From positions 32,001 through 96,000 of the IMG/VR virus record IMGVR_UViG_3300012971_000001: a stretch of DNA of 64,000 bases; one strand, written 5' to 3'. The notes beneath the pieces were generated by a model that had not been told where the DNA came from, ran no database searches, and was given only the letters and a program-made list of their open reading frames with translations. Position 1 is the stretch's first letter. Each line of letters opens with the position of its first letter. Position numbers and translations under genes: made by a program. Source of the stretch: a virus. This document shows, one piece after another, positions 914 to 18,319 of this stretch.

Positions 914-1414
914 GTGACGATGAGAAAGATTCCAGATACACTAGCGGCACAGCAGGCTCGGTTTTCGAAGTTTGTTGATAAGAGTTCGTCGCCTAAGGGC
1001 TGTTGGCTTTGGACCGGATCTAAGGATCATTCTGGCCATGGTCACATAAAAATGAAGATGGCAGATGGCCATTTTGAATTTCAGGCTCATCGCATTGCAC
1101 ATATCTGGTGGATAGGACCTATTCCAGACGGTTTGTATGTTTGCCATAAACGCATTGATGTGTGCGGCAATGCAGCTTGCGCAAACCCTGCACATCTTTA
1201 TATTGGAAACAGCTTTGATAACTTCGCTGATGCAGTAGCTGACGGGCGCCGGCGCCATAACGCTGCACTAACCGAACAGCAGATTGGGCTAATAAAAGCA
1301 ATGTATACTGCCAACATTGTGCATGGAGCTATTTCTGCTATAGCACGAAGGCTAAACCTCAGCAGAGCTACCGTTAGTGCTGTCATAACAGGCAGGATAC
1401 GGAACCGTATATGA
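914..1414 (+). CDS. Free-standing HNH homing endonuclease with C-terminal HTH
   Basis: KSSSPKGCWLWTG...AHRIAH...VCHK...CANPAHLYIG...DN; stop overlaps the portal start (ATGA). Confidence 0.85.
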   Translation: MTMRKIPDTLAAQQARFSKFVDKSSSPKGCWLWTGSKDHSGHGHIKMKMADGHFEFQAHRIAHIWWIGPIPDGLYVCHKRIDVCGNAACANPAHLYIGNSFDNFADAVADGRRRHNAALTEQQIGLIKAMYTANIVHGAISAIARRLNLSRATVSAVITGRIRNRI

Positions 1415-4400
1415 TTGAAATTTTGCGGCGAATGCATAACAGCTTTCGTGCCCGGTTACTCAAGCACTACCGGACGAAGGAAGTCGTGCGGGTGTTTCAG
1501 ATATCCCACGCACAGGAACTGAAGGATTTGCCATATCATCAGTGGCCCGCCGTGCAGGCGCGGCAGACGCAGGAGATAGCAGCAGTGAAGGCCGGGCGCC
1601 TGGATATCGTAGATAGAAAATCCTGGGCATGGCCGTTCATCCCAGCTACGATCAACCGTCTGGCAACGCCGCTGATGAAAGCGACGCCTTACGCACTGCG
1701 GCGTATGTCTCGCACGCCTGTGCCGCGCAGAGCCATCAACCTGATTAAAAACGCTTTGATCGGGCAGGCCTGGGATGTGCAGCCGATAGATGGCGTAGCA
1801 GTACTTGACTCAGATAAGGAGCGGGATGCCCGCATACGGATCGCCAAGAAAATATTCACCCATCCGAATAATGAAGATAGCTTTCAGACGTGGATGGAGC
1901 AGGGGCTGGAGGACTTACTCATCTTCGGCTCATTCTCAACGGAGCTGTCACTTACGCCTGACCCGGAACGCCCGATAAAAATGTGGGCAGTGAATACAGA
2001 GAGCATTCGCATATTTCCCAACTGGGCAGAATCGCTGTCGCAGGACTATCCTCACTACGCGCAGATGACCGGATTAAAAGGCGAGCGCGGAGCCGTTTTG
2101 TTCTACGATGACGAATTAATGTACGTGCGTGACAACATAGCCACGGATACACCATTCGGCACGGGCAAGATGGAAGTCGGATTTCGCTCGATCACAGATT
2201 TTCTGGGCGTGCAGGACATGAGCGGCAGAGCAGGCACGGATCAAGTCCACAAAACGTGGTTGTGGTGGGAGCAGCCACAATGTTTTGACGATCAAACGGA
2301 AGTGTTGACAACGCGGGGATGGGTGCCATGGTCTGGTACTTTAGATACCGATTGCTTTGCTACTCGTAGTGCTGATGGAAAGTTCGAGTGGCAGCAATGC
2401 ACAGCTTTGCATAAGAAGCACTACAAGGGCAATTTGGTCCAGTTTCAGAATCGTAATCTTCGCATACAAGTGACGCCGAATCATCGAATGTTTGGGCGTT
2501 ACAAGTATTCGGGCAGACAGGATGGGAAGCATATCTATTATTTCGGTGACGAGCAGTTTGCGCAAGCGTGCGATGTGATTAGTACGGTTGCCAATAAACC
2601 TGGAAAGGGCAGTAAAATATCCGTTGGCTCAGATATAGCACGGATGACTACACGAAAGCCAAAATGTCACATTGATAGGCCAGATCCGAATTGCAAGCGA
2701 TGTAGAAATCGCCTGGTCATGCGAAGGTACTATGATCGCATATATCAGGGCATAGCGCCTGGCCAGTCTAGCAAGAAAACCCCTGCCGACTTTGTTATTC
2801 CAGCTAGATCTAAGTGGGTAGACGGCGTGCTGCCGGCAGAAAAATTTACAGTAGGCAAATGGGAGTTTGATTGGCAAGATTGGGCAGCATTCCTTGGAAT
2901 ATGGATGGCTGAGGGTTCTACTAGCGGCAACATGCATGCAGCACGCTTAAAGAAAAAGCAAGGGGTAAAAGAGCCTGGTTATATAGCTGCGATAGCAGCA
3001 TCAGCAGATGGAAATGCTTTCGCTCATCAGAAGAAGCATTGCACTGATATCCATACGTTTAAGGTAATCGTGGCTCAGAGCAGTAAGGCCAATTCAGAGA
3101 AGTATCAGGCTATTAAGTCCTTGATGGACAAGATGAACTTGCCTTACTACACGCACGGCAATGCCTTTACTTTTACTTGCCGAGACATTTGGGAACATCT
3201 CGCACAGTTTGGAAATAAATATACCAAGTGGGTGCCAGACTACATTAAGGACGCGCCTTCTGATGTTATCAGCACGTTTGTGCATTGGGCTTGTATAGGT
3301 GATGGCTGGCTTAGGGGAAATAAGGGTGCCAGAGGATACTTCACGACCAGTCGAAAACTAGCTGACGATCTGCAAGAACTATTTCAGAAGATAGGTAGCA
3401 GTGCCAGTATTGGTCGATCGAATGCGCATGTTGACAAGCATGGACGCTGCATATCACCTGGCTATTCCGTGATAGAACAGACGACTGAAGAGATCAGCTT
3501 AATGCCTAGCGCTTATAGGCCTGGTCGAGGGATGTGCAAGCCGCAGCTAGTGCCATATGATGGGATGGTGTACTGTGCGACAGTGCCAAATAGCACTCTA
3601 TACTGTCGCCGAAATGGCTATGCATTTTGGAGTGGGAATTCCGAGGCAGCCTATCAAATCGTGCGCAGGCATATCCAGAACGAGCTAGAAGGGCAGGCAA
3701 AGATATCGATCGTCGGCGGGATGAAGAAGCCAGAAGTCATCGAGGTGCAGCCGACGGTCGAATCCGACTTACTGTTGGGCTGGCAGGAAGTGCTGATCCG
3801 GATGATCGGCAACGCATTCGACTTATCGGCGATGGCACTTGGCGTGGAACACGACGTGAACAGAGCAGTGGGTGAAGTGCTAGACGACCGTGACCACAGA
3901 TCGGCCGTGGTCCCGATGGGCAAGCGCCTGGCAGAAGCACTTACGACGCGCGTCCTACACAACAAATTGCATTGGTACGATATCGAGTTCGTCTACCTGA
4001 ATTTGGACGACCCGGATATGGTCACCAAGCTCGACATGCTGACGCGGATGTACAGCGCCAATGCCGAGACGCCAAACGGAATCAGAATCGGCATGGGCAA
4101 GCAGCCGCTGGATAGCCCATTCGCAGACCTTACGCAGTTTGAATGCATGTTGCTCAACGTGCAGGCGCAGGTGTACGCCCAGGAAGAAGCCGCCAAGACT
4201 CAGCAGGAAATGCAGCCGCCAGCGCCGCCTGCAGGACCGGGCGGTCCCAGTGGTCCCGGGCAGGGGCCGGGGACGACGCCTGCGGTCAATGGACCGCCCC
4301 AAAAATCGATCCCACCGGGGCAGGCGCCGGGGAAAAAGGGCCTACCACCGGGGCAACAGCCGCCGACTACAGCACCCGGCGGTCCTGGCGGGCAGAAACC

Positions 4401-4872
4401 ATTAAAGATAAAGCCCAAAGTTGCCTCGCCAACCAAGCTCAGCCTTCCGAAATTCCCTATCTCCGGCACTGCATATACCGCCATGGAACTCGCGGAAATG
4501 CCGGTGGATCAGCTTCGCAACCTGTTCGACCAGGAGCAGATGCCGCCGGTCAAAAATGTCATGCACGACATGGAAAATCAGGAGCCGGGCATCCTCGAAC
4601 AGCTGTCGGAAGAAACGAAGGAATTCTTCGAAGAGCGCAAGCAAAAGGAACAGGCGCAGCATCGCGTCAAGCCGATAGATCCGAAAATCATCAAGCAGTG
4701 GGCCAAGGAACAGCAGGACCGCCTGAAGGAGCACAGCAAGCGTACCGCGTCCTATTCGGAATTCGTTGAGAAACGCGGTCAGCAAGCCATGAAGCCCGGC
4801 GGCCCGGGATCAAAGGGCATAATCCCCAAGGCAGGCAAGCCGGGGCAGATTAATCCGATAGTCAAGCAATAG
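1411..4872 (+). CDS. Phage portal protein, intein-containing, with Pro/Gly-rich C-terminal extension
   Basis: Portal-like segments (RRAINLIKNAL; LEDLLIFG; YVRDN...PFGTG; LIRMIGNAFDL; TPNGIR...G..PL) and position upstream of protease and capsid genes. Confidence 0.85.
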   Translation: MIEILRRMHNSFRARLLKHYRTKEVVRVFQISHAQELKDLPYHQWPAVQARQTQEIAAVKAGRLDIVDRKSWAWPFIPATINRLATPLMKATPYALRRMSRTPVPRRAINLIKNALIGQAWDVQPIDGVAVLDSDKERDARIRIAKKIFTHPNNEDSFQTWMEQGLEDLLIFGSFSTELSLTPDPERPIKMWAVNTESIRIFPNWAESLSQDYPHYAQMTGLKGERGAVLFYDDELMYVRDNIATDTPFGTGKMEVGFRSITDFLGVQDMSGRAGTDQVHKTWLWWEQPQCFDDQTEVLTTRGWVPWSGTLDTDCFATRSADGKFEWQQCTALHKKHYKGNLVQFQNRNLRIQVTPNHRMFGRYKYSGRQDGKHIYYFGDEQFAQACDVISTVANKPGKGSKISVGSDIARMTTRKPKCHIDRPDPNCKRCRNRLVMRRYYDRIYQGIAPGQSSKKTPADFVIPARSKWVDGVLPAEKFTVGKWEFDWQDWAAFLGIWMAEGSTSGNMHAARLKKKQGVKEPGYIAAIAASADGNAFAHQKKHCTDIHTFKVIVAQSSKANSEKYQAIKSLMDKMNLPYYTHGNAFTFTCRDIWEHLAQFGNKYTKWVPDYIKDAPSDVISTFVHWACIGDGWLRGNKGARGYFTTSRKLADDLQELFQKIGSSASIGRSNAHVDKHGRCISPGYSVIEQTTEEISLMPSAYRPGRGMCKPQLVPYDGMVYCATVPNSTLYCRRNGYAFWSGNSEAAYQIVRRHIQNELEGQAKISIVGGMKKPEVIEVQPTVESDLLLGWQEVLIRMIGNAFDLSAMALGVEHDVNRAVGEVLDDRDHRSAVVPMGKRLAEALTTRVLHNKLHWYDIEFVYLNLDDPDMVTKLDMLTRMYSANAETPNGIRIGMGKQPLDSPFADLTQFECMLLNVQAQVYAQEEAAKTQQEMQPPAPPAGPGGPSGPGQGPGTTPAVNGPPQKSIPPGQAPGKKGLPPGQQPPTTAPGGPGGQKPLKIKPKVASPTKLSLPKFPISGTAYTAMELAEMPVDQLRNLFDQEQMPPVKNVMHDMENQEPGILEQLSEETKEFFEERKQKEQAQHRVKPIDPKIIKQWAKEQQDRLKEHSKRTASYSEFVEKRGQQAMKPGGPGSKGIIPKAGKPGQINPIVKQ
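2281..3639 (+). mobile_element. Intein with LAGLIDADG homing endonuclease inside the portal (453 aa)
   Basis: Starts CFDDQTEVLTTRGW; block B VTPNHRM; LAGLIDADG-like FLGIWMAEGS and ACIGDGW; ends YDGMVYCATVPNSTLYCRRNG...WSGN followed by Ser(+1). Confidence 0.92.
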
Positions 4873-7784: not shown

Positions 7785-8375
7785 GTGATTACAGCAAGTC
7801 CAGCTACCCTGCGCAGGCTAATTCTTCAACGCCCCGGCACGCTGCTGCAGCCCATTCAACCCAAACCATTACCCAACCTGCAGCGATTCAACCTGATGGG
7901 CGGTGGTCCCGGCTCCGGATGTCATGGCGACCAGTGTGGGCGTCCTGCAGGCTCTGGATCGGAGCAGAGCCGTGCAGAGCGTGCTTCGGCAACATACAAG
8001 CCTTCGACCAGAGAAAAGCAGCGGATAGCAGACGAGTCGGAACGTGATCTTAGCATAGCGTTGAAGATGGACCGCACGCCCGACAACGCAGCCTTCGATT
8101 TGAAGATTCCTGCAGCACCACCAGCAAAGGGCGTCGGTGTGGAAATCAAGACGTTCATCGACAACTCGAACAGCAAGATCACGATGCACAAGGAATCGCT
8201 GGCGCGGAAGGTCAAGGCTGCTAAGAAAGAAAAGCTAAACGCGCATACGGTGGTGGTCGATAAGAGAGAACCCGGCACAGAACGCTACTTCTATCGCAAG
8301 GGCGTCGGTTCGTTCTATCTCCGCACCATGAAAGAAGTAAGCATCAAAGAATTGAGAGGGATACTAATCGCATGA
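7785..8375 (+). CDS. Putative head-packaged effector 1: GGPGSGCHG tag plus PD-(D/E)xK nuclease domain
   Basis: AGGAG (7772) then GTG at 7785; LMG-GGPGSGCHGDQCGRP; E...DNAAFD...VEIKT nuclease-like core. Confidence 0.65.
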   Translation: MITASPATLRRLILQRPGTLLQPIQPKPLPNLQRFNLMGGGPGSGCHGDQCGRPAGSGSEQSRAERASATYKPSTREKQRIADESERDLSIALKMDRTPDNAAFDLKIPAAPPAKGVGVEIKTFIDNSNSKITMHKESLARKVKAAKKEKLNAHTVVVDKREPGTERYFYRKGVGSFYLRTMKEVSIKELRGILIA

Positions 8376-8650
8376 GCTACGAAGTAATCGGCGACAGCAA
8401 GCCGCTGGGACAGTTTGCCAGCAACAAGGGCTACACGGACCTGATAGACGCTGCAGATGCCGCAGCAGACAAGTATCCCGCACTGCAGGGGCTGTTCGAT
8501 ACGGGCAGGTCAAAGAATGTAGCCAAAGTCATCACGGAACTGAACACACTTGCGGCAACGGCTTCTAAAGATGTAGCTTCGACAGCAAGGACGCTGGTTT
8601 CACTCATTGCAGGGAAAAAGAAAATTGTCATATCGGATGGTGTCTCATGA
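8372..8650 (+). CDS. Small protein, candidate immunity/partner of effector 1
   Basis: 92 aa, ATGA-coupled to the nuclease gene and to the next gene; lacks the tag. Confidence 0.5.
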   Translation: MSYEVIGDSKPLGQFASNKGYTDLIDAADAAADKYPALQGLFDTGRSKNVAKVITELNTLAATASKDVASTARTLVSLIAGKKKIVISDGVS

Positions 8651-10059
8651 AGCTATTCCTACCGCCTCCAGCAATGCCACCCGACTTAGCGAGCAGCATA
8701 TTGCTCAGAATGCGTGTCCGCTACATCAACGCCGGAGGACCTGGATCGGGCTGTCACGGTCCTAACTGCGGCAGACCGCCGGGGCCTGGAAAAGATGCCC
8801 CGATGGGTGACGCGCCCGGCAGCACCGGGTTCTTACTCAAAGATCGCGGCTGGACAGAAACCGGCAAGCAGGACCTGAAAGGCAAGACAGCCCGCGTGTA
8901 TGAGCACCCGATCCACGGGAAGTTAGTGGTTTCAAATAACTGGTACGAGCATTACGACAAGGGTGGCACGAAAGTCGGCGAGAAGACAGATCTGGTGAAG
9001 GGTACACCGCTGTCGGAAAAGCTGGCAAAATACATGGATGACAAGGGTGGCATGTCGGGCAAGATAACTCCGCCTACCAAGCCTACGCCTCCGCCACCGA
9101 CAATCACCAAGCCTGCGCCCGTGAAACCGCCACCGCCACCGCCAGAAAAGAAAGCCAAGCCAGAGCCGCCCGCGCCAGCCGTGGTCAAGCCCGGCACTTA
9201 CGAAAAAGGCGCCGAAGAATTCCACGCTGCCACGCTCAAGCTACTAGATACGCCAGGGCTGGACACCGCCAAGCAAGCTATCGAAAAAGCGCAGGCAAAC
9301 TACGAAGCTGCTACCAAAGAGTACAGCGCATTTACGAAGACGCTTTATGGAAACGAAGGCGCCTGGGATAAGCCGGAAAACAAAGCCAAGCTGAGCGAGC
9401 TGTACAATAAGCAGGATGAAGCCAACGATGCGCTTCACGAAGCGAAGGCCGCACAAGAGGCAGCCAAGACAGCAGTGAGGGACAAGTTCAATACGCTTTT
9501 GCGCGGTGGAGCTCCTGCAGCCAAGATCGGAACAAAAGCTTACGGAGCATTCGGTATCGGCAATCTAGCGTCTAAGTCAGCAGCAGCATTGGGGCAGATG
9601 CTACCGCAGAAATTCGTAAATTACGCCAAGGTGGATACCTGCAATTTCAAGCAGAAGGGCGGCAGGAGGGCTTACTACAGCGAGGAAGGATTCCCCGGCG
9701 GAGCGGTGTTCATCAATCCCGGCAGCGGCAACGTCCAGACTGGAGTTCACGAGATGGGGCACTGGCTGGAATACAAAGTGCCCGGCTTACAGAAAGAAGC
9801 AACGGATTTTCTCAATCGCCGAACAGCGGGAGAATTCGCACAAAAGCTGAAGAAGCTCACCGGCAAGAATTACAAGTCCAGCGAGGTAGCCAAGCCGGAC
9901 AAGTTCACTAACCCGTACATTGGCAAGATCTACCCGCATGGGGCTACAGAAATCATCTCGATGGGCATGGAACAGCTGTACCACAACCCGGCGGGATTCG
10001 CCAAGGATGACCCGGACTACTTCAAGTTCATGTACAGTGTTATTCATAAAAAGAGGTAG
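8647..10059 (+). CDS. Putative head-packaged effector 2: tag, shared domain, Pro linker and zincin metallopeptidase
   Basis: INA-GGPGSGCHGPNCGRP; GVHEMGHWLE (HExxH) with downstream TEIISMG, as in MuF-associated peptidase domains. Confidence 0.7.
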   Translation: MKLFLPPPAMPPDLASSILLRMRVRYINAGGPGSGCHGPNCGRPPGPGKDAPMGDAPGSTGFLLKDRGWTETGKQDLKGKTARVYEHPIHGKLVVSNNWYEHYDKGGTKVGEKTDLVKGTPLSEKLAKYMDDKGGMSGKITPPTKPTPPPPTITKPAPVKPPPPPPEKKAKPEPPAPAVVKPGTYEKGAEEFHAATLKLLDTPGLDTAKQAIEKAQANYEAATKEYSAFTKTLYGNEGAWDKPENKAKLSELYNKQDEANDALHEAKAAQEAAKTAVRDKFNTLLRGGAPAAKIGTKAYGAFGIGNLASKSAAALGQMLPQKFVNYAKVDTCNFKQKGGRRAYYSEEGFPGGAVFINPGSGNVQTGVHEMGHWLEYKVPGLQKEATDFLNRRTAGEFAQKLKKLTGKNYKSSEVAKPDKFTNPYIGKIYPHGATEIISMGMEQLYHNPAGFAKDDPDYFKFMYSVIHKKR

Positions 10060-10061
10060 AT

Positions 10062-10313
10062 ATGCCGACGACGATTCTTATCAACGGTGCACGGGCAACG
10101 GTCGACAACGATGGTAAGTGGACTCTGGGCAAGAGCCTACCGCCGCAGATGGGCAAGATACTGCAGCAAATAACGAAGCATGCCCTGGCCGAACTTAGCC
10201 CGGCAGATGGCGAGCCGAGCCACGAGATTGCCAGTAAAGCCGTCAAGGCGCTTGGCGGAAAAATCATCGAGAGCACCATCGTCGACGATGCGCCGCCGGA
10301 TGCAGTGCTATGA
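10062..10313 (+). CDS. Small protein, candidate immunity/partner of effector 2
   Basis: 83 aa, GAGGT Shine-Dalgarno, directly after the peptidase gene; lacks the tag. Confidence 0.5.
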   Translation: MPTTILINGARATVDNDGKWTLGKSLPPQMGKILQQITKHALAELSPADGEPSHEIASKAVKALGGKIIESTIVDDAPPDAVL

Positions 10314-11416
10314 TAGAAAAAATCACGATCCACTTTGATACCGATTTCCAAGCAGCAACGGATGCGGTGGCCCCAGATGACCTCAGCGACAGTGAGTACT
10401 ACACCGTTACACCAGAGCAGGCAGAAGAGCGCAGAAAATATTTGACGTCGGAAGGCCCAATAGAAACGCTGGAAAGCATGCTTGCCATGCTAGACGCGGA
10501 AGCAGCACTTGATGCAGTAGAAAGTGGCGAGGCAGATGTCAACCTAAGTGCAGCAGAAGAAATGTTCAATCGCATAGATGCTGGCGGGCCTGGCAGCGGC
10601 TGTCACGGTGATAACTGTGGTCGCCCGGCAGGTGCAGGCGGAGAGGGCATATCCAAGGCTTACGCAGATAATTTGTCGAAGGCCAAAGCGCTGCTGGAAA
10701 AATATGCAGCAGACAAAGAGCCTGAATATCAGGGCCACGTGAAGCTGCCGAATAAAACCATGTACAACAAAGATCGAACGAACAGGTGGATGCAGAGGCT
10801 GGAAGAAGGCCAGCCTCGAGAAGAAGCAGCAAAAGGGCTGGGGCTGTATGTCGAGCTAGCCAACTCGATGGGTCTGGGACCGAAGCACTTACAAGCCGTG
10901 GCCAAGTACATGGATGACTGGACGAATGAGTCGGATGCGGGCGGCGGAAAATACGTGCAGGAAAAAGGCCAGGAAATCGTCGACGGCCATTGCTGCTCGG
11001 ATGCGCGTGCCAAGGCCATGATGGTGGAATATCTGATTACGCAGGCAAAGCTCGAGAAGAAATATCCAAGTGGAATGATTCCCGTGCTATATCGCGGCGT
11101 GTACGGCGACCATGCAGCAGGCTTGAAAGACCAGGCTTCAATGGCGCGCACTAAAGAGGTCAGCATTCGGACCAGAGGTGCAGAAAGCTTTTCGGCGAGT
11201 TACGAAAAGGCAAAAGACTTTGCTGATAGCCACGAACATGGCGTGGTCATCGAAGAACACAACGTGCCGATCACGCATGTAATTTCGTCGTTCGACACGT
11301 CGCCGGGATACTTTGCTGGCCTGGCAGATGAGCGGGAGTATGTACTGTCTCATCCGGGTGCGGGCATGAAAGTGCCCAAGCAGCATATCAAAGACGTGTC
11401 GATGTACGGAGATTAG
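10310..11416 (+). CDS. Putative head-packaged effector 3: acidic leader, tag and R-S-E ADP-ribosyltransferase
   Basis: IDA-GGPGSGCHGDNCGRP; LYRGV, ESFSAS and DEREYVL motifs. Confidence 0.7.
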   Translation: MIEKITIHFDTDFQAATDAVAPDDLSDSEYYTVTPEQAEERRKYLTSEGPIETLESMLAMLDAEAALDAVESGEADVNLSAAEEMFNRIDAGGPGSGCHGDNCGRPAGAGGEGISKAYADNLSKAKALLEKYAADKEPEYQGHVKLPNKTMYNKDRTNRWMQRLEEGQPREEAAKGLGLYVELANSMGLGPKHLQAVAKYMDDWTNESDAGGGKYVQEKGQEIVDGHCCSDARAKAMMVEYLITQAKLEKKYPSGMIPVLYRGVYGDHAAGLKDQASMARTKEVSIRTRGAESFSASYEKAKDFADSHEHGVVIEEHNVPITHVISSFDTSPGYFAGLADEREYVLSHPGAGMKVPKQHIKDVSMYGD

Positions 11417-11417
11417 C

Positions 11418-11546
11418 ATGGCTGACGAAGAAGAAAAAGAATTCGACATAGACTTGTCCGACGATCCCAACAGCAAGTGGATGCACCAGATGCGCGAGAA
11501 AAAGAAGGAGTACGAGCCAGAGCCGGATCCACTGGAGGACGAATGA
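11418..11546 (+). CDS. 42-aa acidic peptide absent from the ORF track; candidate ART inhibitor/partner
   Basis: MADEEEKEFDIDLSDDPNSKWMHQMREKKKEYEPEPDPLEDE fills the gap exactly and its stop overlaps the next ATG; resembles the C-tail of effector 4. Confidence 0.6.
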   Translation: MADEEEKEFDIDLSDDPNSKWMHQMREKKKEYEPEPDPLEDE

Positions 11547-13963
11547 GCTACGTCGACGAGATAGAAAATAATCTCTCTGACTTAGAAGAGTTCCTTGCCC
11601 GAATCGAGGCCGGCGGACCCGGCAGCGGTTGCCATGGACCGAACTGCGGGCGCCCGCCCGGTTCGGGCAAGGGAGGCACGGCACTGCACGATGCTCCAGA
11701 AGGCGCGCCAGGCGTCGGCACGACCGGCACGCTAATGAAGGACTTCGGCTGGAAGAAAGTGCCCGGTGGGGAAACTACCGTCAAAGGCCATCCGGCAACG
11801 ATGTACACGCATCCAACGCATGGCACGATGTTCGTGACCAAGAATTGGTACGAGCATTACAAGGCGGGCGAGAAAATCGGAGAAAAGACGGAGCTGGCCA
11901 AAGGCAAGCCACTCGCAGAGAAGCTGAAGACGTATCTGAAGGAGAACACGCCCCGGCCTGGTTCTGGTCCGGTAGCGCCCGCGCCGACGAAGCCTGCAGG
12001 CCCCAAACCGACCGGAACTACTACTCCACAGCCGAAGCCTATCCCTGCCACAGCCGCTCAGATCCCCAACCGGGACGCAGAGTTCAAGTTCAAGGAAGAC
12101 GCGGGCCATCTGGGCGGCGCCCATGACAAATATCTCTACACCGACAAGCTCGGAAAAGAATATCTGTTCAAGCCAGCAACAACGCTGAGCGGGGATGTCT
12201 CGCCGTTGATGGCACACGCCGATGAAATGGCATCGCGGATAGCGCAGAAGCTGAGGCCCTACGCATTCGAACACGCCAGAGCAGCAGAGCTTACCGTGCC
12301 CGGCCAGGGCAAGGTGGTCGGCAGCGTGCACGAGATGCTGCCGAACATCATGCAGAACAAAGACTTCAGCGGTGTAAAGCCGAAGGACTTAAAGCCAGAA
12401 GACTCGGCACAGCTGCAACGTGAGCAGGTAATCGACTGGCTGATCAGCAACCACGACTCGCATGGCGGCCAGTTCATCCGCAGCGAAGGCGGAAAAGTAA
12501 TCGGCATCGACAAGACGCAGGCATTCAAGTACTTTGGCAAAGATAAGCTGGATGTTGATTACCATCCGAATGCAAGCTACGGCGAGAAGCCGCCTTACTA
12601 CAATGACATGTGGAAGGCGGTGAAAAAGGGTGATCTGACAGTCGACCCGATGCAGTCGTACAAGACGATTCAGAAGGCACAGGCAATCCCTGATGATGAG
12701 TATCGCAACATACTCATGCCTTATGCCAAAGAAAGATTCAAGAACGACGACAAAGCCGCGAACGAATTCCTTGACAAAGCCGTTGGCAGGAAAAACGCTC
12801 TAAAGGCAGACTTCGAGAAATTCATCGGTGGTGTGTACGGCAAGCCGTTCACGTTCAATAATGGCTTTTCCGGCACTGGGAATCCTATTCCAAAACCCGC
12901 GGGCGCCGGACCGAAGCCACCGTTGCAGCCGGGAGATAAAGGCAGGCCAGCGCCGGTAGAGGAGCAGAAGCAGCGCCTGGCGGAGATGATACAAAAGCCT
13001 TCGGAAAAAGGCCAGGGCACGGCCGGCCACGTCATTGCCTGGGAACCGTATGTACCGCCAGATAATCCGCAGTTCAAATCGCGGATGGCTGAGGCACATC
13101 AAGTGGTGGCAGATGTGATGAGCAAGTACAGCGGCCCGAGCCAAAAATATCTGCATAATTTTGACGATGACAAGCGCTGGGAATGGGAAGCTAAAATCAA
13201 CAGCGGAAAATCTCCCGTAGATGCAGCAAAGGGCCTGGGCGTCTATCCAGAGGCATTTGCTAAGATGGGATTTTCGCCGGGAGAGATGCATGACATGATC
13301 GGCACCATCAAGGGCTGGACGGGCAGCTCGTCGGGAACGAATGGTACTAAGGTGCAGGAAGCAGCGCAGCAGATTATTAACGGCAAGTGCTGTAGCTCAA
13401 AGGTGGCTCGTGCCTTCGAGTTGGAGTACGCCTTAACGCAGGCAAAATTAGCCAAGCAAGTAGATTCGGCAGGTAAGCTCAAGATTCCGGTGTGGCGGGG
13501 CGTGAATGATACTGACGAGCCAGGTTACGCCAACCAATTAGAGGCAGCTGCAGCCAAGCATGACTTCGTAGAAACGGTCAACCGCGGTGCTGAGAGTTAC
13601 TCGACCAGCTTGGATAAAGCTAAGCAATTCGGTCGAGTCATCCTACAGATACACAACGTGCCCGCCAAGCAAGTGCTTACTTCAGCACTTACTAATCCCG
13701 CAGCATTTACAGCTCACCATCACGAAGCGGAAATGGTGGTTGCTCACAAGGGCAATCAGAAGCTGCTTGCGAAAGATGTGATCATCAAGCATTCGGGACC
13801 GTACACGGCGCTGCTAAAGTCGGAGGCAGAGAAAGAAAAAGGATCGTTGGTGCTAGATCTGACGGATGATGTGAACGCAGATTGGTATGCAATAGCTGCC
13901 AGACGTATGCATCTGCCACCAAATGAGGATTATAAGATCTTCGTTATGGAAGCTGTAGAGTAA
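11543..13963 (+). CDS. Putative head-packaged effector 4: tag, shared domain, HipA/PI3-4-kinase-like domain and R-S-E ADP-ribosyltransferase
   Basis: GGAGG then ATG 11543; IEA-GGPGSGCHGPNCGRP; kinase motifs YLFKP, ADEMASRI, DWLISNHDSH, IGIDK; ART motifs VWRGV, ESYSTS, HEAEMVV. Confidence 0.72.
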   Translation: MSYVDEIENNLSDLEEFLARIEAGGPGSGCHGPNCGRPPGSGKGGTALHDAPEGAPGVGTTGTLMKDFGWKKVPGGETTVKGHPATMYTHPTHGTMFVTKNWYEHYKAGEKIGEKTELAKGKPLAEKLKTYLKENTPRPGSGPVAPAPTKPAGPKPTGTTTPQPKPIPATAAQIPNRDAEFKFKEDAGHLGGAHDKYLYTDKLGKEYLFKPATTLSGDVSPLMAHADEMASRIAQKLRPYAFEHARAAELTVPGQGKVVGSVHEMLPNIMQNKDFSGVKPKDLKPEDSAQLQREQVIDWLISNHDSHGGQFIRSEGGKVIGIDKTQAFKYFGKDKLDVDYHPNASYGEKPPYYNDMWKAVKKGDLTVDPMQSYKTIQKAQAIPDDEYRNILMPYAKERFKNDDKAANEFLDKAVGRKNALKADFEKFIGGVYGKPFTFNNGFSGTGNPIPKPAGAGPKPPLQPGDKGRPAPVEEQKQRLAEMIQKPSEKGQGTAGHVIAWEPYVPPDNPQFKSRMAEAHQVVADVMSKYSGPSQKYLHNFDDDKRWEWEAKINSGKSPVDAAKGLGVYPEAFAKMGFSPGEMHDMIGTIKGWTGSSSGTNGTKVQEAAQQIINGKCCSSKVARAFELEYALTQAKLAKQVDSAGKLKIPVWRGVNDTDEPGYANQLEAAAAKHDFVETVNRGAESYSTSLDKAKQFGRVILQIHNVPAKQVLTSALTNPAAFTAHHHEAEMVVAHKGNQKLLAKDVIIKHSGPYTALLKSEAEKEKGSLVLDLTDDVNADWYAIAARRMHLPPNEDYKIFVMEAVE

Positions 13964-14001
13964 AATCGAGTAACAAGCGGAATATCGAGTAACTGGTTCG
14001 C

Positions 14002-14038
14002 TTCGCCGTTGGCCGTTCCTGCTCCTACATCGTAGACT
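14002..14038 (+). promoter_or_regulatory. Putative late promoter, copy 2
   Basis: TTCGCCG TTGGCC, 18 nt, TAGACT; preceded by the direct repeat ATCGAGTAAC at 13965 and 13984. Confidence 0.55.
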
Positions 14039-14052
14039 CACTTTGTTAAACG

Positions 14053-15489
14053 ATGGCACAGAGACTGGAACTAATCCAAGGATCGGTTAGCATAACCGCA
14101 CAGGAGACTCATCCCAACAAGATGAAATTCCGCGGAGTGCTGGTCCGTTTGGATGAGCCGTCAACCCGGCCGCCGAACGGAGCCGAAGGGCACCGAATCT
14201 ACGTTCCGACAGCGGTTGCAGCCAAGCGGTTGCAGACTCTGGTCGGCATGGGATTAAATTACGCTGAGAACTTAGATGGCCATCAGCAGAGAAGAAAAGT
14301 CGGAGTTATCCAGAAGGCAAATATCGAGGGCAAGGATCTGTGGGTTGAGGGAATTGTTTGGAAGCATGACTTTCCCGAAGCCACGGATGACTTGAAGCAG
14401 AAGAACCTGGGCATGTCGATGGAGATCGGGCAGGTAGCGGTCGACGACATCAACGCAGATGTGTGGGTGCTGAACGACTTCTATTTCCTGGGCGCCACGA
14501 TTCTGTTCCGTGATGCAGCAGCCTATGAACGTACGCAAGCAATTGCTGCGCAGGCAAACAAAGGGAGCGCAAACATGAAGAAACCGACGGTAACAAAGCC
14601 AGCAGCCGTACAGCGGATGGACGCTGGCGCCATTGCACAAATCGCCACGCAGGCTGCTGTGGAAGGCGTGTCCAAGCATTTCGCGGGCACGTTCAACCGG
14701 CAGACCAACCTGCTGGCAAGGATGGCCGCACAGTTCGAAGACGTGAACTCGCGGCTTACCGCCCTAGAAGCCGGGGCTGTCACGGATGACGAGGACGACG
14801 ACGAAATCGACGACATCGACGCAGAAGGCAACGTCGCACCTCCGCCTGCGGCAACAGCAGTTCCGAAAATGACGACAAAGAAAAAAGTCGCCGCAGCCGA
14901 TGACGAGGACGATGAGGACGATGAGGACAAGAAGGCGGACGAGGACGACGACGAGGAAATCGAATCCGAAGCCATCGACAAGGGCGATCTTGAAGAGATG
15001 GGTCCGGACACTGCCGGTGGGGACCTCGGCACGCCGGCGCATCAGAACGAAGACGACGAAAACAAAGGGAGCAGAACGACCTTGAACGACGACGTCGGAA
15101 AGACCGTAGCTTCGGCGGCTTTGAAGTCGCTTCGCAAGCAGGTGGCCAAGCTGACAGCAGGGCACGTGCAGCTGCAGCAGGAAAACAAGCGGCTGAAAAA
15201 GCAGCTGGCTGCCACGCATCGCCAAGTTACCGCAGCAGCCAACGATGTCACCCGGCGCTCGCGGCCAATCCACAATGACGTGCAGGGTCTGCTGGCAAAG
15301 AGCGGCCTGGATCCGATGAACATGCAGGCCTCGTCCCAGAAGCTTTCGGTCGCCGAAGTGGACGCACTGATCGCCTCGTCGCTTCCGAATGTGGACGTCA
15401 CCACGCGGATGACGCTCAAGAACAAGATGCTCGAAATGGGGCTGATGGAAGAAGGGGCAGTCCACCGGCAGTTGATTCCACGGGGCTAA
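14053..15489 (+). CDS. Prohead maturation protease fused to an acidic scaffold domain
   Basis: Assemblin/HK97-like protease pattern (GH...KVGVI...LWVEGIVW...LGMSMEI) followed by D/E-rich and coiled-coil regions; lies immediately before the capsid gene. Confidence 0.78.
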   Translation: MAQRLELIQGSVSITAQETHPNKMKFRGVLVRLDEPSTRPPNGAEGHRIYVPTAVAAKRLQTLVGMGLNYAENLDGHQQRRKVGVIQKANIEGKDLWVEGIVWKHDFPEATDDLKQKNLGMSMEIGQVAVDDINADVWVLNDFYFLGATILFRDAAAYERTQAIAAQANKGSANMKKPTVTKPAAVQRMDAGAIAQIATQAAVEGVSKHFAGTFNRQTNLLARMAAQFEDVNSRLTALEAGAVTDDEDDDEIDDIDAEGNVAPPPAATAVPKMTTKKKVAAADDEDDEDDEDKKADEDDDEEIESEAIDKGDLEEMGPDTAGGDLGTPAHQNEDDENKGSRTTLNDDVGKTVASAALKSLRKQVAKLTAGHVQLQQENKRLKKQLAATHRQVTAAANDVTRRSRPIHNDVQGLLAKSGLDPMNMQASSQKLSVAEVDALIASSLPNVDVTTRMTLKNKMLEMGLMEEGAVHRQLIPRG

Positions 15490-17493: not shown

Positions 17494-17937
17494 ATGCGAC
17501 TGGATGAAATGCTTTTGCTGAGTAAGTCAGCTACAATTCAGGCTGGCAGTGCAAAGAACGATGGCGAGATTTTCCGCGAGATGCACGACACACTGCAACA
17601 GCACGGCTTCCAGCAGGAAAGCAAGGACGACCACCACGCCGACTACCGGCACCAGAACGGAGACTTAGTCAAGCTGCGGCATTCGACGAGCAAGATGTAC
17701 CCCGAATCCAAGGCGGCTGGTAATTTTACTCTCAAGCCGCAGATGGCTTACGACAAGCGCGGCATCCCTGTGGATCGTCCTGGCGTGTCAACAAAGGGCA
17801 AGTCGTTCCGCCAGCTGCACGAGGATTCGGATGCTGAAGGCAGCGGGCATGAAGCGTTGAAGAGCACGCTGGAGCAGTTTGGTCACAAGCCGGCCTACGG
17901 GCCGCCAGAAAAGGCAGGAAAAAATGCGACTAAGTGA
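17494..17937 (+). CDS. Small putative internal head protein with MRLDEMLL...IQA leader
   Basis: Leader ends in I-Q-A; LQQHGF...YRHQNG domain resembles the next gene. Confidence 0.5.
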   Translation: MRLDEMLLLSKSATIQAGSAKNDGEIFREMHDTLQQHGFQQESKDDHHADYRHQNGDLVKLRHSTSKMYPESKAAGNFTLKPQMAYDKRGIPVDRPGVSTKGKSFRQLHEDSDAEGSGHEALKSTLEQFGHKPAYGPPEKAGKNATK

Positions 17938-18319
17938 TGCAGTAGCAATGCGGAATATGGGCACCTTCGGCCGAACTATCATGGCAGGTGGCCCGGGCAG
18001 CGGTCGCCATCCCGGTGGCGGAAGCCAGGAAGACCAGGCAAAGGCGGATGGAGGGAAGCTTCACTCTGCCCTGTCGGAGCATGGCTTTAAGTACTCTAGC
18101 ACCGAACACGACGACCCGAGCGGAGTTGATGAGCACACATACTCGCATCCGAATGGCGAGAGCGTGAGCTTTGCCAGCTATGGCGGCGGCCCGTCGAAAG
18201 GCGGCAACACCGAATGGGAGCACAAAGACTCCAGCGGTGACAGAATCCGCAGAGGTGAAGGTGCCAAGTCGTTCGGTCAGCACATGGAACGCCATTACGG
18301 CGTAAATAAAATGAAATGA
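17924..18319 (+). CDS. Small putative internal head protein with IMA-GGPGSGRH tag
   Basis: AGGA then ATG 17924; MRLSDAV...RTIMAGGPGSGRHPG; LSEHGF...YSHPNG...WEH. Confidence 0.6.
   Translation: MRLSDAVAMRNMGTFGRTIMAGGPGSGRHPGGGSQEDQAKADGGKLHSALSEHGFKYSSTEHDDPSGVDEHTYSHPNGESVSFASYGGGPSKGGNTEWEHKDSSGDRIRRGEGAKSFGQHMERHYGVNKMK

What the first reader, a model, noticed from the sequence alone, without database searches (positions are those of the whole stretch)
11418..13963. Unannotated 42-aa peptide after ART 1 reappears fused to the C-terminus of ART 2
Seen: the small ORF 11418-11546 contains FDIDLSDDPNSKW, and the tail of effector 4 contains LVLDLTDDVNADW (13847-13885) just after ...LLKSEA. Both follow paralogous ART domains. 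Inference: an acidic ART inhibitor or chaperone, supplied in trans in one case and in cis in the other, possibly removed by the prohead protease to arm the enzyme inside the capsid.
Basis: partly seen in the sequence, partly recalled or inferred. Interest (0 to 1): 0.72.

Follow-up and report, generated by a model that had tools for sequence, protein, structure and literature searches.

The report
Detached tail peptide of phage ART
A 42-residue gene behind a phage ADP-ribosylating enzyme is the cut-off end of that enzyme, a short tail that most relatives carry fused, which gives a natural way to test what the tail does.

Summary
ORF 11418-11546 (42 aa) and the C-terminus of the 806-aa protein 11543-13963 share the motif [ILVF]D[ILVF][ST]DDxNxxW. 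These are its only two occurrences in six frames of the window, and both lie behind paralogous R-S-E ART domains.

The motif is a family feature. By my reading, 25 of 31 distant ART homologues carry a tail of this kind after a floppy linker. A profile built only from nine foreign tails picks the 42-aa ORF as the best hit in the whole 117-kb phage genome (E 5.9e-5).

ART1's stop codon falls inside the conserved element, two codons after a conserved hY[SGT] position. The remainder restarts one base later, with its own GGAG ribosome site. So the peptide is a split-off tail, not a new gene family.

AF2 models of two fused versions place the tail strand and Trp turn confidently (pLDDT 87 and 92). 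Structural alignment reaches the tail for Vis toxin and few other entries; Vis's C-terminal fragment is known to replace chaperoning of an ART core.

Best reading: a detachable cap for the ART core, supplied in trans to ART1. An inhibitor role and protease removal remain untested. The complex predictor was unavailable.

The parts
10310..11416 (+). ART1 gene (368 aa): N-terminal leader with GGPGSGCHGDNCGRP (10586-10621) and a C-terminal R-S-E ART domain, ending SMYGD-stop
   Evidence: Pfam DRAT 18.2 bits, below the 25-bit cut-off; R262, E341, E343 invariant in A4
10757..11371 (+). ART1 catalytic domain (aa 150-354)
   Evidence: phmmer domain limits; 37% identity to ART2, E 1e-34
11399..11416 (+). 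SMYGD plus TAG stop. The conserved hY[SGT] position of the tail element lies here, and the stop falls 2 codons after the Tyr
   Evidence: compared by eye with KDMYSA (P0030), SFYSS (P0036), DMYSS (P0048), SYYAS (P0046), GMYGS (P0018), GPYTA (ART2)
11408..11411 (+). GGAG Shine-Dalgarno-like site, 6 nt before the ATG of the peptide ORF
   Evidence: read from the sequence
11418..11546 (+). 42-aa ORF, the detached tail of ART1. It starts 1 nt after the ART1 stop (+1 frame), and its stop overlaps the next start (ATGA, 11543-11546)
   Evidence: called on 3 contigs; top hit of the foreign-tail HMM; BLASTP E 3e-6 to the P0036 tail and 3e-5 to the P0048 tail
11442..11495 (+). Core of the tail element in the peptide: FDIDLSDDPNSKWMHQMR (strand, Trp turn, start of the basic stretch)
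11543..13963 (+). Effector 4 gene (806 aa): leader with GGPGSGCHGPNCGRP (11615-11650), kinase-like middle domain, ART2, tail
   Evidence: the 806-aa form is the one in public gene calls
12005..12862 (+). Kinase-like middle domain (aa ~155-440)
   Evidence: 21 IMG/VR loci match query residues ~144-446; weak HipA_C hint, E 0.078; conserved in A7
13130..13804 (+). ART2 catalytic domain (aa 530-754), with R, S and ExE present
   Evidence: Pfam DRAT 32.9 bits, above the 25-bit cut-off; R123, E199, E201 invariant; the AF2 model matches R-S-E ARTs among the entries shown, apart from two anthrax lethal factor entries
13805..13963 (+). ART2 tail (aa 755-806): linker TALLKSEAEKEKGS, strand and Trp LVLDLTDDVNADW (13847-13885), then YAIAARRMHLPPNEDYKIFVMEAVE
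   Evidence: AF2 gives strand 241-243 and helix 247-250, block pLDDT 87

Best explanation
The 42-aa ORF is the C-terminal tail of ART1, separated from its enzyme by gene fission. This clade of phage R-S-E ADP-ribosyltransferases normally ends with a conserved accessory element. Its parts, in order, are a hY[SGT][SA] position about 10 residues after the last core strand, a floppy and mostly acidic linker, a short amphipathic strand (h-x-h-D-h-[ST]-D-[DE]), a Trp turn (N-x-x-W-[LM]-H) and a basic stretch. In polyproteins the AGGPGSG motif that opens the next module follows within about 7-25 residues. In this phage a TAG and a 1-nt frame offset fall inside the element, two codons after the Tyr. 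The rest is kept as its own small gene with a GGAG site, an ATG 1 nt after the stop, and an ATGA overlap with the next gene, so it is probably made by translational coupling in about the same amount as ART1. My proposed mechanism is inferred, not shown. The tail folds back on the ART core by strand addition and a Trp anchor and covers an exposed surface. This would be a self-cap or intramolecular chaperone, like the C-terminal fragment of Vis toxin, which replaces 14-3-3 chaperoning of ExoS. ART2 has the cap in cis, and ART1 receives it in trans from the peptide. Shown: homology, colinearity, the position of the stop, the reality of the junction, and the confident placement of cis tails in models. 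Inferred: translation, trans binding and the capping function. I put the fission origin at about 0.9 and the whole statement, including trans capping, at about 0.45.
For: Homology and specificity. The strict motif is found 2 of 2 times at these places in six frames. A foreign-tail HMM ranks the peptide first of 3192 genome segments, E 5.9e-5. The peptide matches the tails of P0036 (E 3e-6) and P0048 (E 3e-5) better than the ART2 tail (E 0.001).

Family feature. Exhaustive phmmer with ART2+tail found 34 proteins at E<=0.001. I read the flanks printed, plus P0046. By that reading, 12 of 31 non-window homologues have the NW[LM]H-type tail, 13 of 31 a hhhDGT...[HW] variant, and 6 of 31 end 4-27 aa after the core.

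Colinearity. ART1 end plus peptide (KDVSMYGD-stop / MADEEEKEFDIDLSDD...WMHQMR) runs parallel to contiguous P0030 (KDMYSAADEKSEEPEEIDLSDVDVDWLHRNR), P0036 and P0048.

The junction is real. Identical ART1, peptide and effector-4 products are called on 3 contigs. A 151-nt contig from another soil study covers 11361-11511 with 0 differences, and no indels are listed.

Expression signals. There is a GGAG 6 nt before the ATG and an ATGA overlap downstream. No + strand promoter-like or terminator-like site lies in 10000-14300.

Structure. In the ART2+tail model (pLDDT 85.7, pTM 0.82) the linker 226-235 is below 50, while the tail block 241-250 is 87 with strand 241-243. In the P0036 model (pLDDT 89.9) the linker block is 68 and the tail block 171-180 is 92 with strand 172-174. 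In each model the tail holds no other strand, so the strand's partner probably lies in the core. The VIA alignment ranges reach the tail for the three Vis entries, and otherwise for only 2 of 50 entries and 1 of 50 entries.

Precedent. Vis residues 218-249 grafted on ExoS 233-409 give a 14-3-3-independent active enzyme. The ExoS core is competent for catalysis but prone to aggregate (PMC6141617, passages read).
Against: I could not see model coordinates, so the docking site on the core is unknown. Docking itself is inferred only from pLDDT and DSSP.

The Vis match is weak (Z 5.9-6.4, rmsd 5.1-5.5 Å), and a range gives only the first and last aligned residue.

Both models share nearly the same alignment, so they are not independent.

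6 of 31 homologues end without a tail, so the core can exist alone and ART1 may not need the peptide.

The motif also occurs away from this ART. It is at the end of P0048, which has a non-ART module. It is in a 67-aa free ORF (L044) and at the end of a 166-aa zinc-ribbon protein (L036). It is in 61-aa ORFs next to RecT (L010, L014). A pure ART cap would not be expected there.

No other free-standing homologue of 15-84 aa was found at E<=10 among 701 candidates, so the split arrangement is so far a one-off.

My tail classes were assigned by eye. My regex recognised fewer: 10 NWL, 9 DGT and 15 none, of 34 domain rows.

Translation of the peptide is not shown.
Confidence: 0.45

Rival explanations
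1. Decaying remnant. A nonsense or frameshift lesion cut the tail off ART1. ART1 works without it, as the naturally tail-less homologues presumably do, and the 42-aa ORF is a leftover that is not used, even if it is translated by accident.
For: 6 of 31 homologues end 4-27 aa after the core. One of them, P0025, ends ...KYAGEEME, at the same hY[AG] position as ART1's ...SMYGD. No other free-standing homologue was found. No relatives close enough to test purifying selection on the ORF were found.
Against: The leftover keeps an intact 42-codon frame, an ATG 1 nt after the stop, a GGAG at ideal spacing and an ATGA overlap with the next gene. Its core matches the family consensus (W-M-H-x-x-R) better than the fused ART2 tail does. 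The junction is identical in a second study's contig.
Confidence: 0.2
2. Module-junction element. The tail belongs functionally to the joint between cargo modules. With the following AGGPGSG(CHGxNCGRP) motif it would mark where polyproteins are cut, or where separately encoded modules dock head to tail. It could also act as a conserved recombination cassette for module swapping. On this view the peptide is as much a leader of effector 4 as a tail of ART1.
For: In polyproteins the tail is followed by AGGPGSG after about 7-25 aa: P0046 IELSDDENAMWLHKKSISAGGPGSGCHGDNCGRP, and also P0030, P0040 and P0042. P0048 is a non-ART module flanked by an N-terminal GGPGSGC and a C-terminal tail. P0009 has a similar IRVDLSD...W before AGGPGSGCN after a non-ART part. 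The peptide ORF overlaps the effector-4 start, and ART1 and effector 4 are in the same frame. Iyer et al. propose processing of polyvalent proteins into units (PMC5512222, passages read).
Against: The tail also ends proteins with nothing behind it (ART2, P0036, P0043, P0041). Of the four GGPGSGCHG proteins in this window, only the two ARTs have the strict tail. The tail-profile search returned 10 of 12 hits on this ART family, though the profile came from ART tails. No cut has been mapped, and no head protease was recognised here.
Confidence: 0.2
3. The tail is an inhibitory latch (antitoxin-like) that keeps the ART silent in the producing cell. It would act in cis on ART2 and in trans on ART1, and be removed by the head protease inside the capsid.
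For: The models place the tail confidently, tethered by a disordered linker that carries a conserved hY[SGT] position, which could be a cut site. The peptide is probably made with ART1 by translational coupling. ART toxin/immunity pairs appear among the structural neighbours of the core (6dre, 8za7). Free-standing or foreign copies of the motif (L044, L036, L010) could be read as trans-acting binders.
Against: Nothing shows that the tail touches the NAD site. The one structural analogue with data, the Vis C-terminus, supports activity and does not block it. A late-expressed phage ART in a cell that is about to lyse has no obvious need for immunity. No protease and no cut site were identified. 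The two-gene arrangement is not conserved anywhere else that I could see.
Confidence: 0.1
4. Programmed +1 frameshift or stop bypass that makes an ART1-tail fusion from the two frames.
For: The ORFs are separated by a stop and one base, and there is a GGAG just upstream. A +1 shift would give a product colinear with the fused homologues.
Against: Read from the sequence, the site is GAT-TAG-C. A tRNA-Asp cannot re-pair on ATT. The GGAG overlaps the shift codon and does not lie about 3 nt before it as in prfB (recalled). An ATG with proper spacing explains the GGAG better.
Confidence: 0.03

Closest known systems
Phage-type polyvalent proteins (Iyer, Burroughs, Anand, de Souza, Aravind 2017, PMC5512222; abstract and passages read)
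   Same: These are late-gene, head-module proteins that string disparate enzyme domains (ART, kinase, NUDIX, InPase, zincin peptidase). They are presumed to be packaged and injected, and the same modules occur fused or as separate genes. Homologues of ART2 sit in proteins of 700-2847 aa with InPase and NUDIX domains.
   Different: The paper's polyvalent ARTs are H-Y-[EDQ] (Tox-ART-HYD2). [quoted passage not shown] Here the ART is R-S-E and DraT-like. The passages I read mention neither the tail nor the AGGPGSG delimiter; 'linker' and 'glycine' have 0 occurrences.
C-terminal fragment of Vis toxin, and 14-3-3 chaperoning of ExoS/ExoT through a C-terminal LDLA box (Karlberg et al. 2018, PMC6141617; passages read)
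   Same: A short segment after an R-S-E ART core stabilises an otherwise competent but aggregation-prone core. The Vis entries are among the few shown whose alignment range reaches the phage tail.
   Different: There is no sequence similarity to the Vis tail or to LDLA. The phage tail hangs on a long disordered linker and can be a separate gene. No host cofactor is implied. The match is weak (Z about 6).
T4 Alt, a packaged ART with a targeting peptide removed by the head protease (as summarised in PMC5512222; cleavage details recalled)
   Same: An R-S-E ART encoded among late genes and delivered with the DNA.
   Different: The Alt signal is N-terminal and is cut at a known motif by a known protease. 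Here the element is C-terminal, and neither a cut nor a protease is identified.
ART toxin-immunity pairs such as Tre1-Tri1 (PDB 6dre/6drh among the fold hits; biology recalled)
   Same: An ART gene is followed by a small gene whose product may bind it.
   Different: The peptide is a fragment of the enzyme's own tail. It has no hydrolase or known immunity domain, and the pair is not conserved elsewhere.
Fragment complementation of split proteins (RNase S, split GFP strand 11; recalled)
   Same: A short strand-forming peptide encoded apart from the body it completes.
   Different: Those examples are laboratory constructs. Here the split would be natural, and the piece is probably accessory, not an essential part of the core.

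Membership tests
R-S-E ADP-ribosyltransferases (DraT-like, Pfam PF07357; C3/Vis/ExoS-type fold) | Score above the Pfam gathering threshold | tested here: met
   ART2: 32.9 bits against a 25-bit cut-off. ART1: 18.2 bits, below the cut-off, but tied to ART2 by BLASTP E 1e-34.
R-S-E ADP-ribosyltransferases (DraT-like, Pfam PF07357; C3/Vis/ExoS-type fold) | Catalytic Arg, Ser motif and ExE | tested here: met
   YRGV/WRGV, ESFSAS/ESYSTS and EREY/EAEM are present. The R and both E are invariant in alignments of 7, 32 and 33 sequences.
R-S-E ADP-ribosyltransferases (DraT-like, Pfam PF07357; C3/Vis/ExoS-type fold) | ART fold | tested here: met
   AF2 models have pLDDT 85.7 and 89.9. Apart from anthrax lethal factor entries (4xm7, 1j7n_B), the entries shown are ARTs (HopU1 Z 6.5, Vis, C3, ExoS, iota and others). 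All have Z below 8, and Foldseek E is no better than 7.6e-3.
R-S-E ADP-ribosyltransferases (DraT-like, Pfam PF07357; C3/Vis/ExoS-type fold) | NAD-dependent transfer activity | not testable with these tools
   Needs an enzyme assay.
Phage polyvalent proteins (Iyer et al. 2017) | Two or more disparate domains in one polypeptide | tested here: met
   Effector 4 has a kinase-like domain plus an ART. Homologues add InPase and NUDIX.
Phage polyvalent proteins (Iyer et al. 2017) | Encoded among virion or late genes | tested here: met
   The genes lie downstream of the portal (Phage_portal, E 6.6e-19), all on the + strand. L050 has a homologous effector gene within a run of same-strand ORFs; those ORFs were not identified.
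Phage polyvalent proteins (Iyer et al. 2017) | ART of the H-Y-[EDQ] Tox-ART-HYD2 type | tested here: not met
   The ART here is R-S-E. The paper says R-S-E Alt/VIP2 ARTs are not in genuine polyvalent proteins.
Phage polyvalent proteins (Iyer et al. 2017) | Packaged in the virion and injected | not testable with these tools
   Needs virion proteomics.
ART toxin with a cognate immunity or antitoxin gene | The two-gene arrangement recurs in relatives | tested here: inconclusive
   Only the peptide itself scored at E<=10 among 701 candidates of 15-84 aa. DNA around the six tail-less homologues could not be fetched.
ART toxin with a cognate immunity or antitoxin gene | The partner has a known immunity fold or a hydrolase domain | tested here: not met
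   The partner is 42 aa with no Pfam or PHROG family. It is homologous to the enzyme's own tail.
Head-protease-removed propeptide (T4 CTS type) | A recognisable prohead protease and a mapped or consensus cut site | tested here: inconclusive
   No protease family was found for 14053-15489 in Pfam, PHROGs or PDB sequences. The conserved hY[SGT] position is only a candidate site.
Programmed +1 frameshift (prfB type) | A shift-prone P-site codon before a weak stop, with an SD about 3 nt upstream | tested here: not met
   The site is GAT-TAG-C and the GGAG overlaps the GAT codon. The criteria themselves are recalled.
Vis-type C-terminal cap of an ART core | The segment after the core folds back onto it | tested here: inconclusive
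   Tail blocks have pLDDT 87 and 92 with a short strand. The Vis alignment ranges reach the tail. I saw no coordinates.

The most novel reading that the evidence does not exclude
The tail is a portable ART-binding peptide, and this phage runs ART1 as a natural two-piece enzyme whose state depends on whether the 42-aa piece is present. The free-standing or foreign copies of the same motif would then be trans-acting binders of incoming phage ARTs, that is, a peptide-level defence or competition device. These copies are a 67-aa ORF on a bacterial-looking contig (L044), the end of a zinc-ribbon protein (L036), and 61-aa ORFs beside RecT in other viruses (L010, L014).
Probability: 0.1. Interest if true: 0.75.

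Novelty: new variant of a known kind. Interest (0 to 1): 0.45.

Why it matters
Phage-packaged ADP-ribosyltransferases are known, but how their activity or folding is managed around packaging and ejection is not. This work defines a conserved tail behind one clade of R-S-E ARTs that sit in polyvalent-type cargo proteins, a setting where the defining paper did not find R-S-E ARTs. My searches found no description of this tail in print. The work also shows that one phage carries both forms side by side, fused on ART2 and split on ART1. That pairing is a ready-made experiment: compare ART1 with and without the peptide, and ART2 with and without its tail. The result would tell whether the tail is a cap, a latch or only a joint. 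It also ties the tail to the widespread AGGPGSG module delimiter, whose function is open.

Tried and rejected
The queue was full eight times and then the tool was declared unavailable. Nothing was folded, so there is no result on trans binding.

Near relatives.
- blastn against the phages collection gave only 4 short mycobacteriophage matches, covering 3-4% of the query.
- The search for related loci found none with P0001, P0025, P0022 or P0017 in viral contigs.
- It also found none with A5 in metagenome contigs or genome contigs.
- A1 had no conserved stretch to search with.
- As a result I could not see whether the six tail-less ARTs are followed by a tail ORF.

Motif scans.
- The first viral scan gave 13 loci. 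Four were terminase C-termini (one checked with Pfam, L003), and only L010 and L014 look tail-like.
- The metagenome scan gave 30 loci. At least 15 belong to an unrelated WDVWDELNGHWIH family, and by eye only L044 and L036 are convincing.
- The second viral scan gave 3 loci, none relevant.

A7 scan. Of 21 loci with the kinase-like domain, 1 has this ART (L050, DGT-type tail) and 0 have a tail-HMM hit at E<=1.

Other searches.
- ESM Atlas gave no usable hit for the peptide.
- No RNA holder is listed for the region.
- A chance explanation is rejected.
- Assembly error is rejected.
- The prohead protease could not be identified.
- The 215-aa gene after the L050 effector is not similar to 14053-15489.
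- A scan note says the Gly-Gly joint includes the mapped T5 tape-measure cut site. I could not check it, because the site is only in a supplementary figure.
Full report
What is there.

The window is bases 32001-96000 of a 117,450-bp virus record with terminal repeats. All long ORFs are on the + strand. Downstream of the portal (Phage_portal, E 6.6e-19), four proteins share an N-terminal GGPGSGCHGxxCGRP motif, at 7905, 8737, 10586 and 11615. Two of them end in R-S-E ART domains:
- ART1 is 10310-11416 (368 aa).
- Effector 4 is 11543-13963 (806 aa), with a kinase-like domain followed by ART2.

The two ART domains are 37% identical over 204 residues, E 1e-34. Between the two genes lies the 42-aa ORF 11418-11546.

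The motif [ILVF]D[ILVF][ST]DD.N..W occurs twice in six frames of 64 kb, once in the small ORF and once in the tail of effector 4. BLASTP of the peptide against effector 4 aligns residues 2-21 with 762-781, E 0.001. The exact 42-aa product is already in public gene calls on 3 contigs, unnamed.

It is a family feature.

An exhaustive phmmer search with ART2 plus its tail found 34 proteins at E<=0.001. Most are proteins of 700-2847 aa, and some carry InPase and NUDIX domains. I printed what follows each ART domain and added P0046. I dropped P0024, which is truncated, and P0044, a repeat protein without the ART. By eye, the remaining 31 fall into three groups:
- 12 of 31 have a tail with the consensus h-x-h-D-h-[ST]-D-[DE]-x-N-x-x-W-[LM]-H-x-x-[RK].
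- 13 of 31 have a variant, hhhDGT...[HW]..PPDW, followed by a second strand-like stretch.
- 6 of 31 end 4-27 aa after the core.

A crude regex of mine recognised fewer: 10, 9 and 15 of 34 domain rows.

About 10 residues after the core there is a recurrent hY[SGT][SA] position: KDMYSA, SFYSS, SYYAS, DMYSS, GMYGS, KIYGA, GPYTA.

In polyproteins the tail is followed closely by the AGGPGSG delimiter of the next module. One example is IELSDDENAMWLHKKSISAGGPGSGCHGDNCGRP in P0046.

An HMM of nine foreign tails, with no window sequence, was run against all 3192 six-frame segments of the phage genome. It ranks the peptide ORF first (E 5.9e-5) and effector 4 second. The peptide matches the tails of P0036 (E 3e-6) and P0048 (E 3e-5) better than that of ART2.

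The split.

ART1 ends ...KDVSMYGD-TAG. The peptide starts one base later, MADEEEKEFDIDLSDDPNSKWMHQMR. Together they run parallel to contiguous ...KDMYSAADEKSEEPEEIDLSDVDVDWLHRNR in P0030, and to the same stretch in P0036 and P0048. So the stop lies inside the conserved element, two codons after the Tyr.

The junction is real. The three products are identical on three contigs. A 151-nt contig from a different soil study covers 11361-11511 without a difference, and no indel is listed.

The downstream piece has GGAG 6 nt before its ATG, and its stop overlaps the next start as ATGA. No + strand promoter-like or terminator-like site lies in 10000-14300. Coupled translation is therefore plausible but not shown.

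A prfB-like +1 shift is unlikely. The site is GAT-TAG-C and the GGAG overlaps the shift codon (the criteria are recalled).

Structure.

AF2 on ART2 plus tail used a 32-sequence alignment and gave pLDDT 85.7 and pTM 0.82. The linker 226-235 is below 50, but the tail block 241-250 is at 87, with strand 241-243 and helix 247-250. The foreign homologue P0036 gave pLDDT 89.9. Its linker block is 68 and its tail block 171-180 is 92, with strand 172-174 and helix 178-181.

In each model the tail holds no other strand, so the partner probably lies in the core. I could not see coordinates, and the two alignments overlap heavily.

Fold searches return R-S-E ARTs almost exclusively, apart from anthrax lethal factor entries. 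All have modest scores: best Z 6.5, best Foldseek E 7.6e-3.

The aligned range ends at the core for most entries. For the ART2 model, 45 of 50 shown end there; for the P0036 model, 46 of 50. For the three Vis toxin entries the range reaches the tail, to model residues 246 and 177 and to Vis residue 234.

Karlberg et al. showed that Vis residues 218-249 grafted on ExoS 233-409 give an enzyme active without 14-3-3. They also showed that 14-3-3 chaperones an aggregation-prone hydrophobic surface of an otherwise competent core (PMC6141617, passages read). This is the basis for reading the tail as a cap.

What does not fit neatly.

- The motif also ends P0048, a 196-aa protein with an N-terminal GGPGSGC and a non-ART middle.
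- A related IRVDLSD...W precedes AGGPGSGCN in P0009.
- Degenerate DNA scans found a 67-aa free ORF, KPLVVDVTDDENFHWLHSMR (L044), and a 166-aa zinc-ribbon protein ending EPPVIDLTDDENHNWLHEVRRQR (L036).
- They also found 61-aa ORFs next to RecT and a PD-(D/E)XK nuclease (L010, L014).
- No further small homologue scored at E<=10 among 701 candidates.
- The tail-profile search of longer proteins returned 12 proteins at E<=10, 10 of them on this ART.

So the element is strongly but not exclusively tied to this ART, and it is also part of the module joint.

Mechanism.

I commit to the following. The peptide is the split-off tail of ART1 (about 0.9). The tail is a tethered cap that folds back on the ART core. 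ART1 receives it in trans from a coupled small gene. I put the whole chain at about 0.45.

Rivals:
- an unused remnant (0.2);
- a junction, processing or docking element (0.2), which is not exclusive with the cap;
- a programmed frameshift (0.03).

No head protease could be recognised in 14053-15489.

Comparison and novelty.

The setting is that of phage polyvalent proteins (PMC5512222). That paper describes H-Y-[EDQ] ARTs and says R-S-E Alt/VIP2 ARTs are not in genuine polyvalent proteins. Its text has 0 occurrences of 'linker' and 'glycine'.

Full-text searches found nothing on this element. The searches were for GGPGSG (17 papers, none of the 14 listed relevant), NWLH with phage (10, none relevant) and ART with C-terminal extension, autoinhibit and phage (3 reviews). 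Supplements were not read.

Earlier notes of this scan describe similar cargo polyproteins with joint motifs in other genomes. The general theme has therefore been met before. The tail and its natural split have not.

Not done.

The complex predictor was unavailable. The DNA around the tail-less homologues could not be fetched.

Noticed in passing
window 7905-7940, 8737-8772, 10586-10621, 11615-11650; also 17879-18319: Four head-module proteins share GGPGSGCHGxxCGRP near the N-terminus. A fifth ORF has MAGGPGSGRHPGG. The same motif delimits modules in many unrelated large proteins, up to 9 copies in P0030. Its function is unknown, and full-text search found no mention of it in print.
   Followed up: partly
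window 1411-4872: The portal protein is 1153 aa. The Phage_portal match resumes at residue 744, right after ...WSGN|S. An insert starts at Cys291 (CFDDQTEVL) and has a weak LAGLIDADG_3 hit (E 0.0027). This looks like an intein with a homing endonuclease.
   Followed up: no
window 8647-10059: The 470-aa GGPGSGCHG protein ends in an HEMGH (HExxH) domain at residue 368. It matches phrog_33618 (E 3.3e-36) and a 'minor head protein' PHROG, so it is a candidate zincin peptidase of the polyvalent type. P0011 is a homologue.
   Followed up: no
window 12005-12862: The middle domain of effector 4 (LGGAHDKY...SNHDSHGGQF...IDKTQAF) is kinase-like (HipA_C hint, E 0.078). It recurs in 21 IMG/VR loci, and only 1 of the 21 also has this ART.
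   Followed up: partly
window 10310-13963: ART1 and effector 4 are in the same reading frame, and only the 42-codon piece between them is shifted (+1 in, back out at ATGA). This would fit an ancestral single ORF, but the chance of it is 1 in 3.
   Followed up: no
L044 1677-1880; L036 362-862 (-); L010 2887-3072 (-); L014 2887-3084 (-): The tail-like motif occurs outside any ART: a free 67-aa ORF, the end of a zinc-ribbon protein, and 61-aa ORFs beside RecT and a PD-(D/E)XK nuclease.
   Followed up: partly
window 13965-13974 and 13984-13993: Two exact copies of ATCGAGTAAC lie 19 bp apart, just after the effector-4 stop, in the 89-bp gap before the next gene. With one mismatch allowed there are 10 matches in the window against 2.4 expected.
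   Followed up: no
window 14443-14466: The product of the next gene contains DDINADVW, close to the ART2 tail's DDVNADW. It was not picked up by the tail HMM and is probably coincidence.
   Followed up: no
window 8372-8650 and 10062-10313: Small ORFs of 92 and 83 aa sit between the other GGPGSGCHG genes, each joined to the next gene by an ATGA overlap like the peptide. They end KKKIVISDGVS and KIIESTIVDDAPPDAVL, which are strand-like but do not match the tail motif.
   Followed up: no
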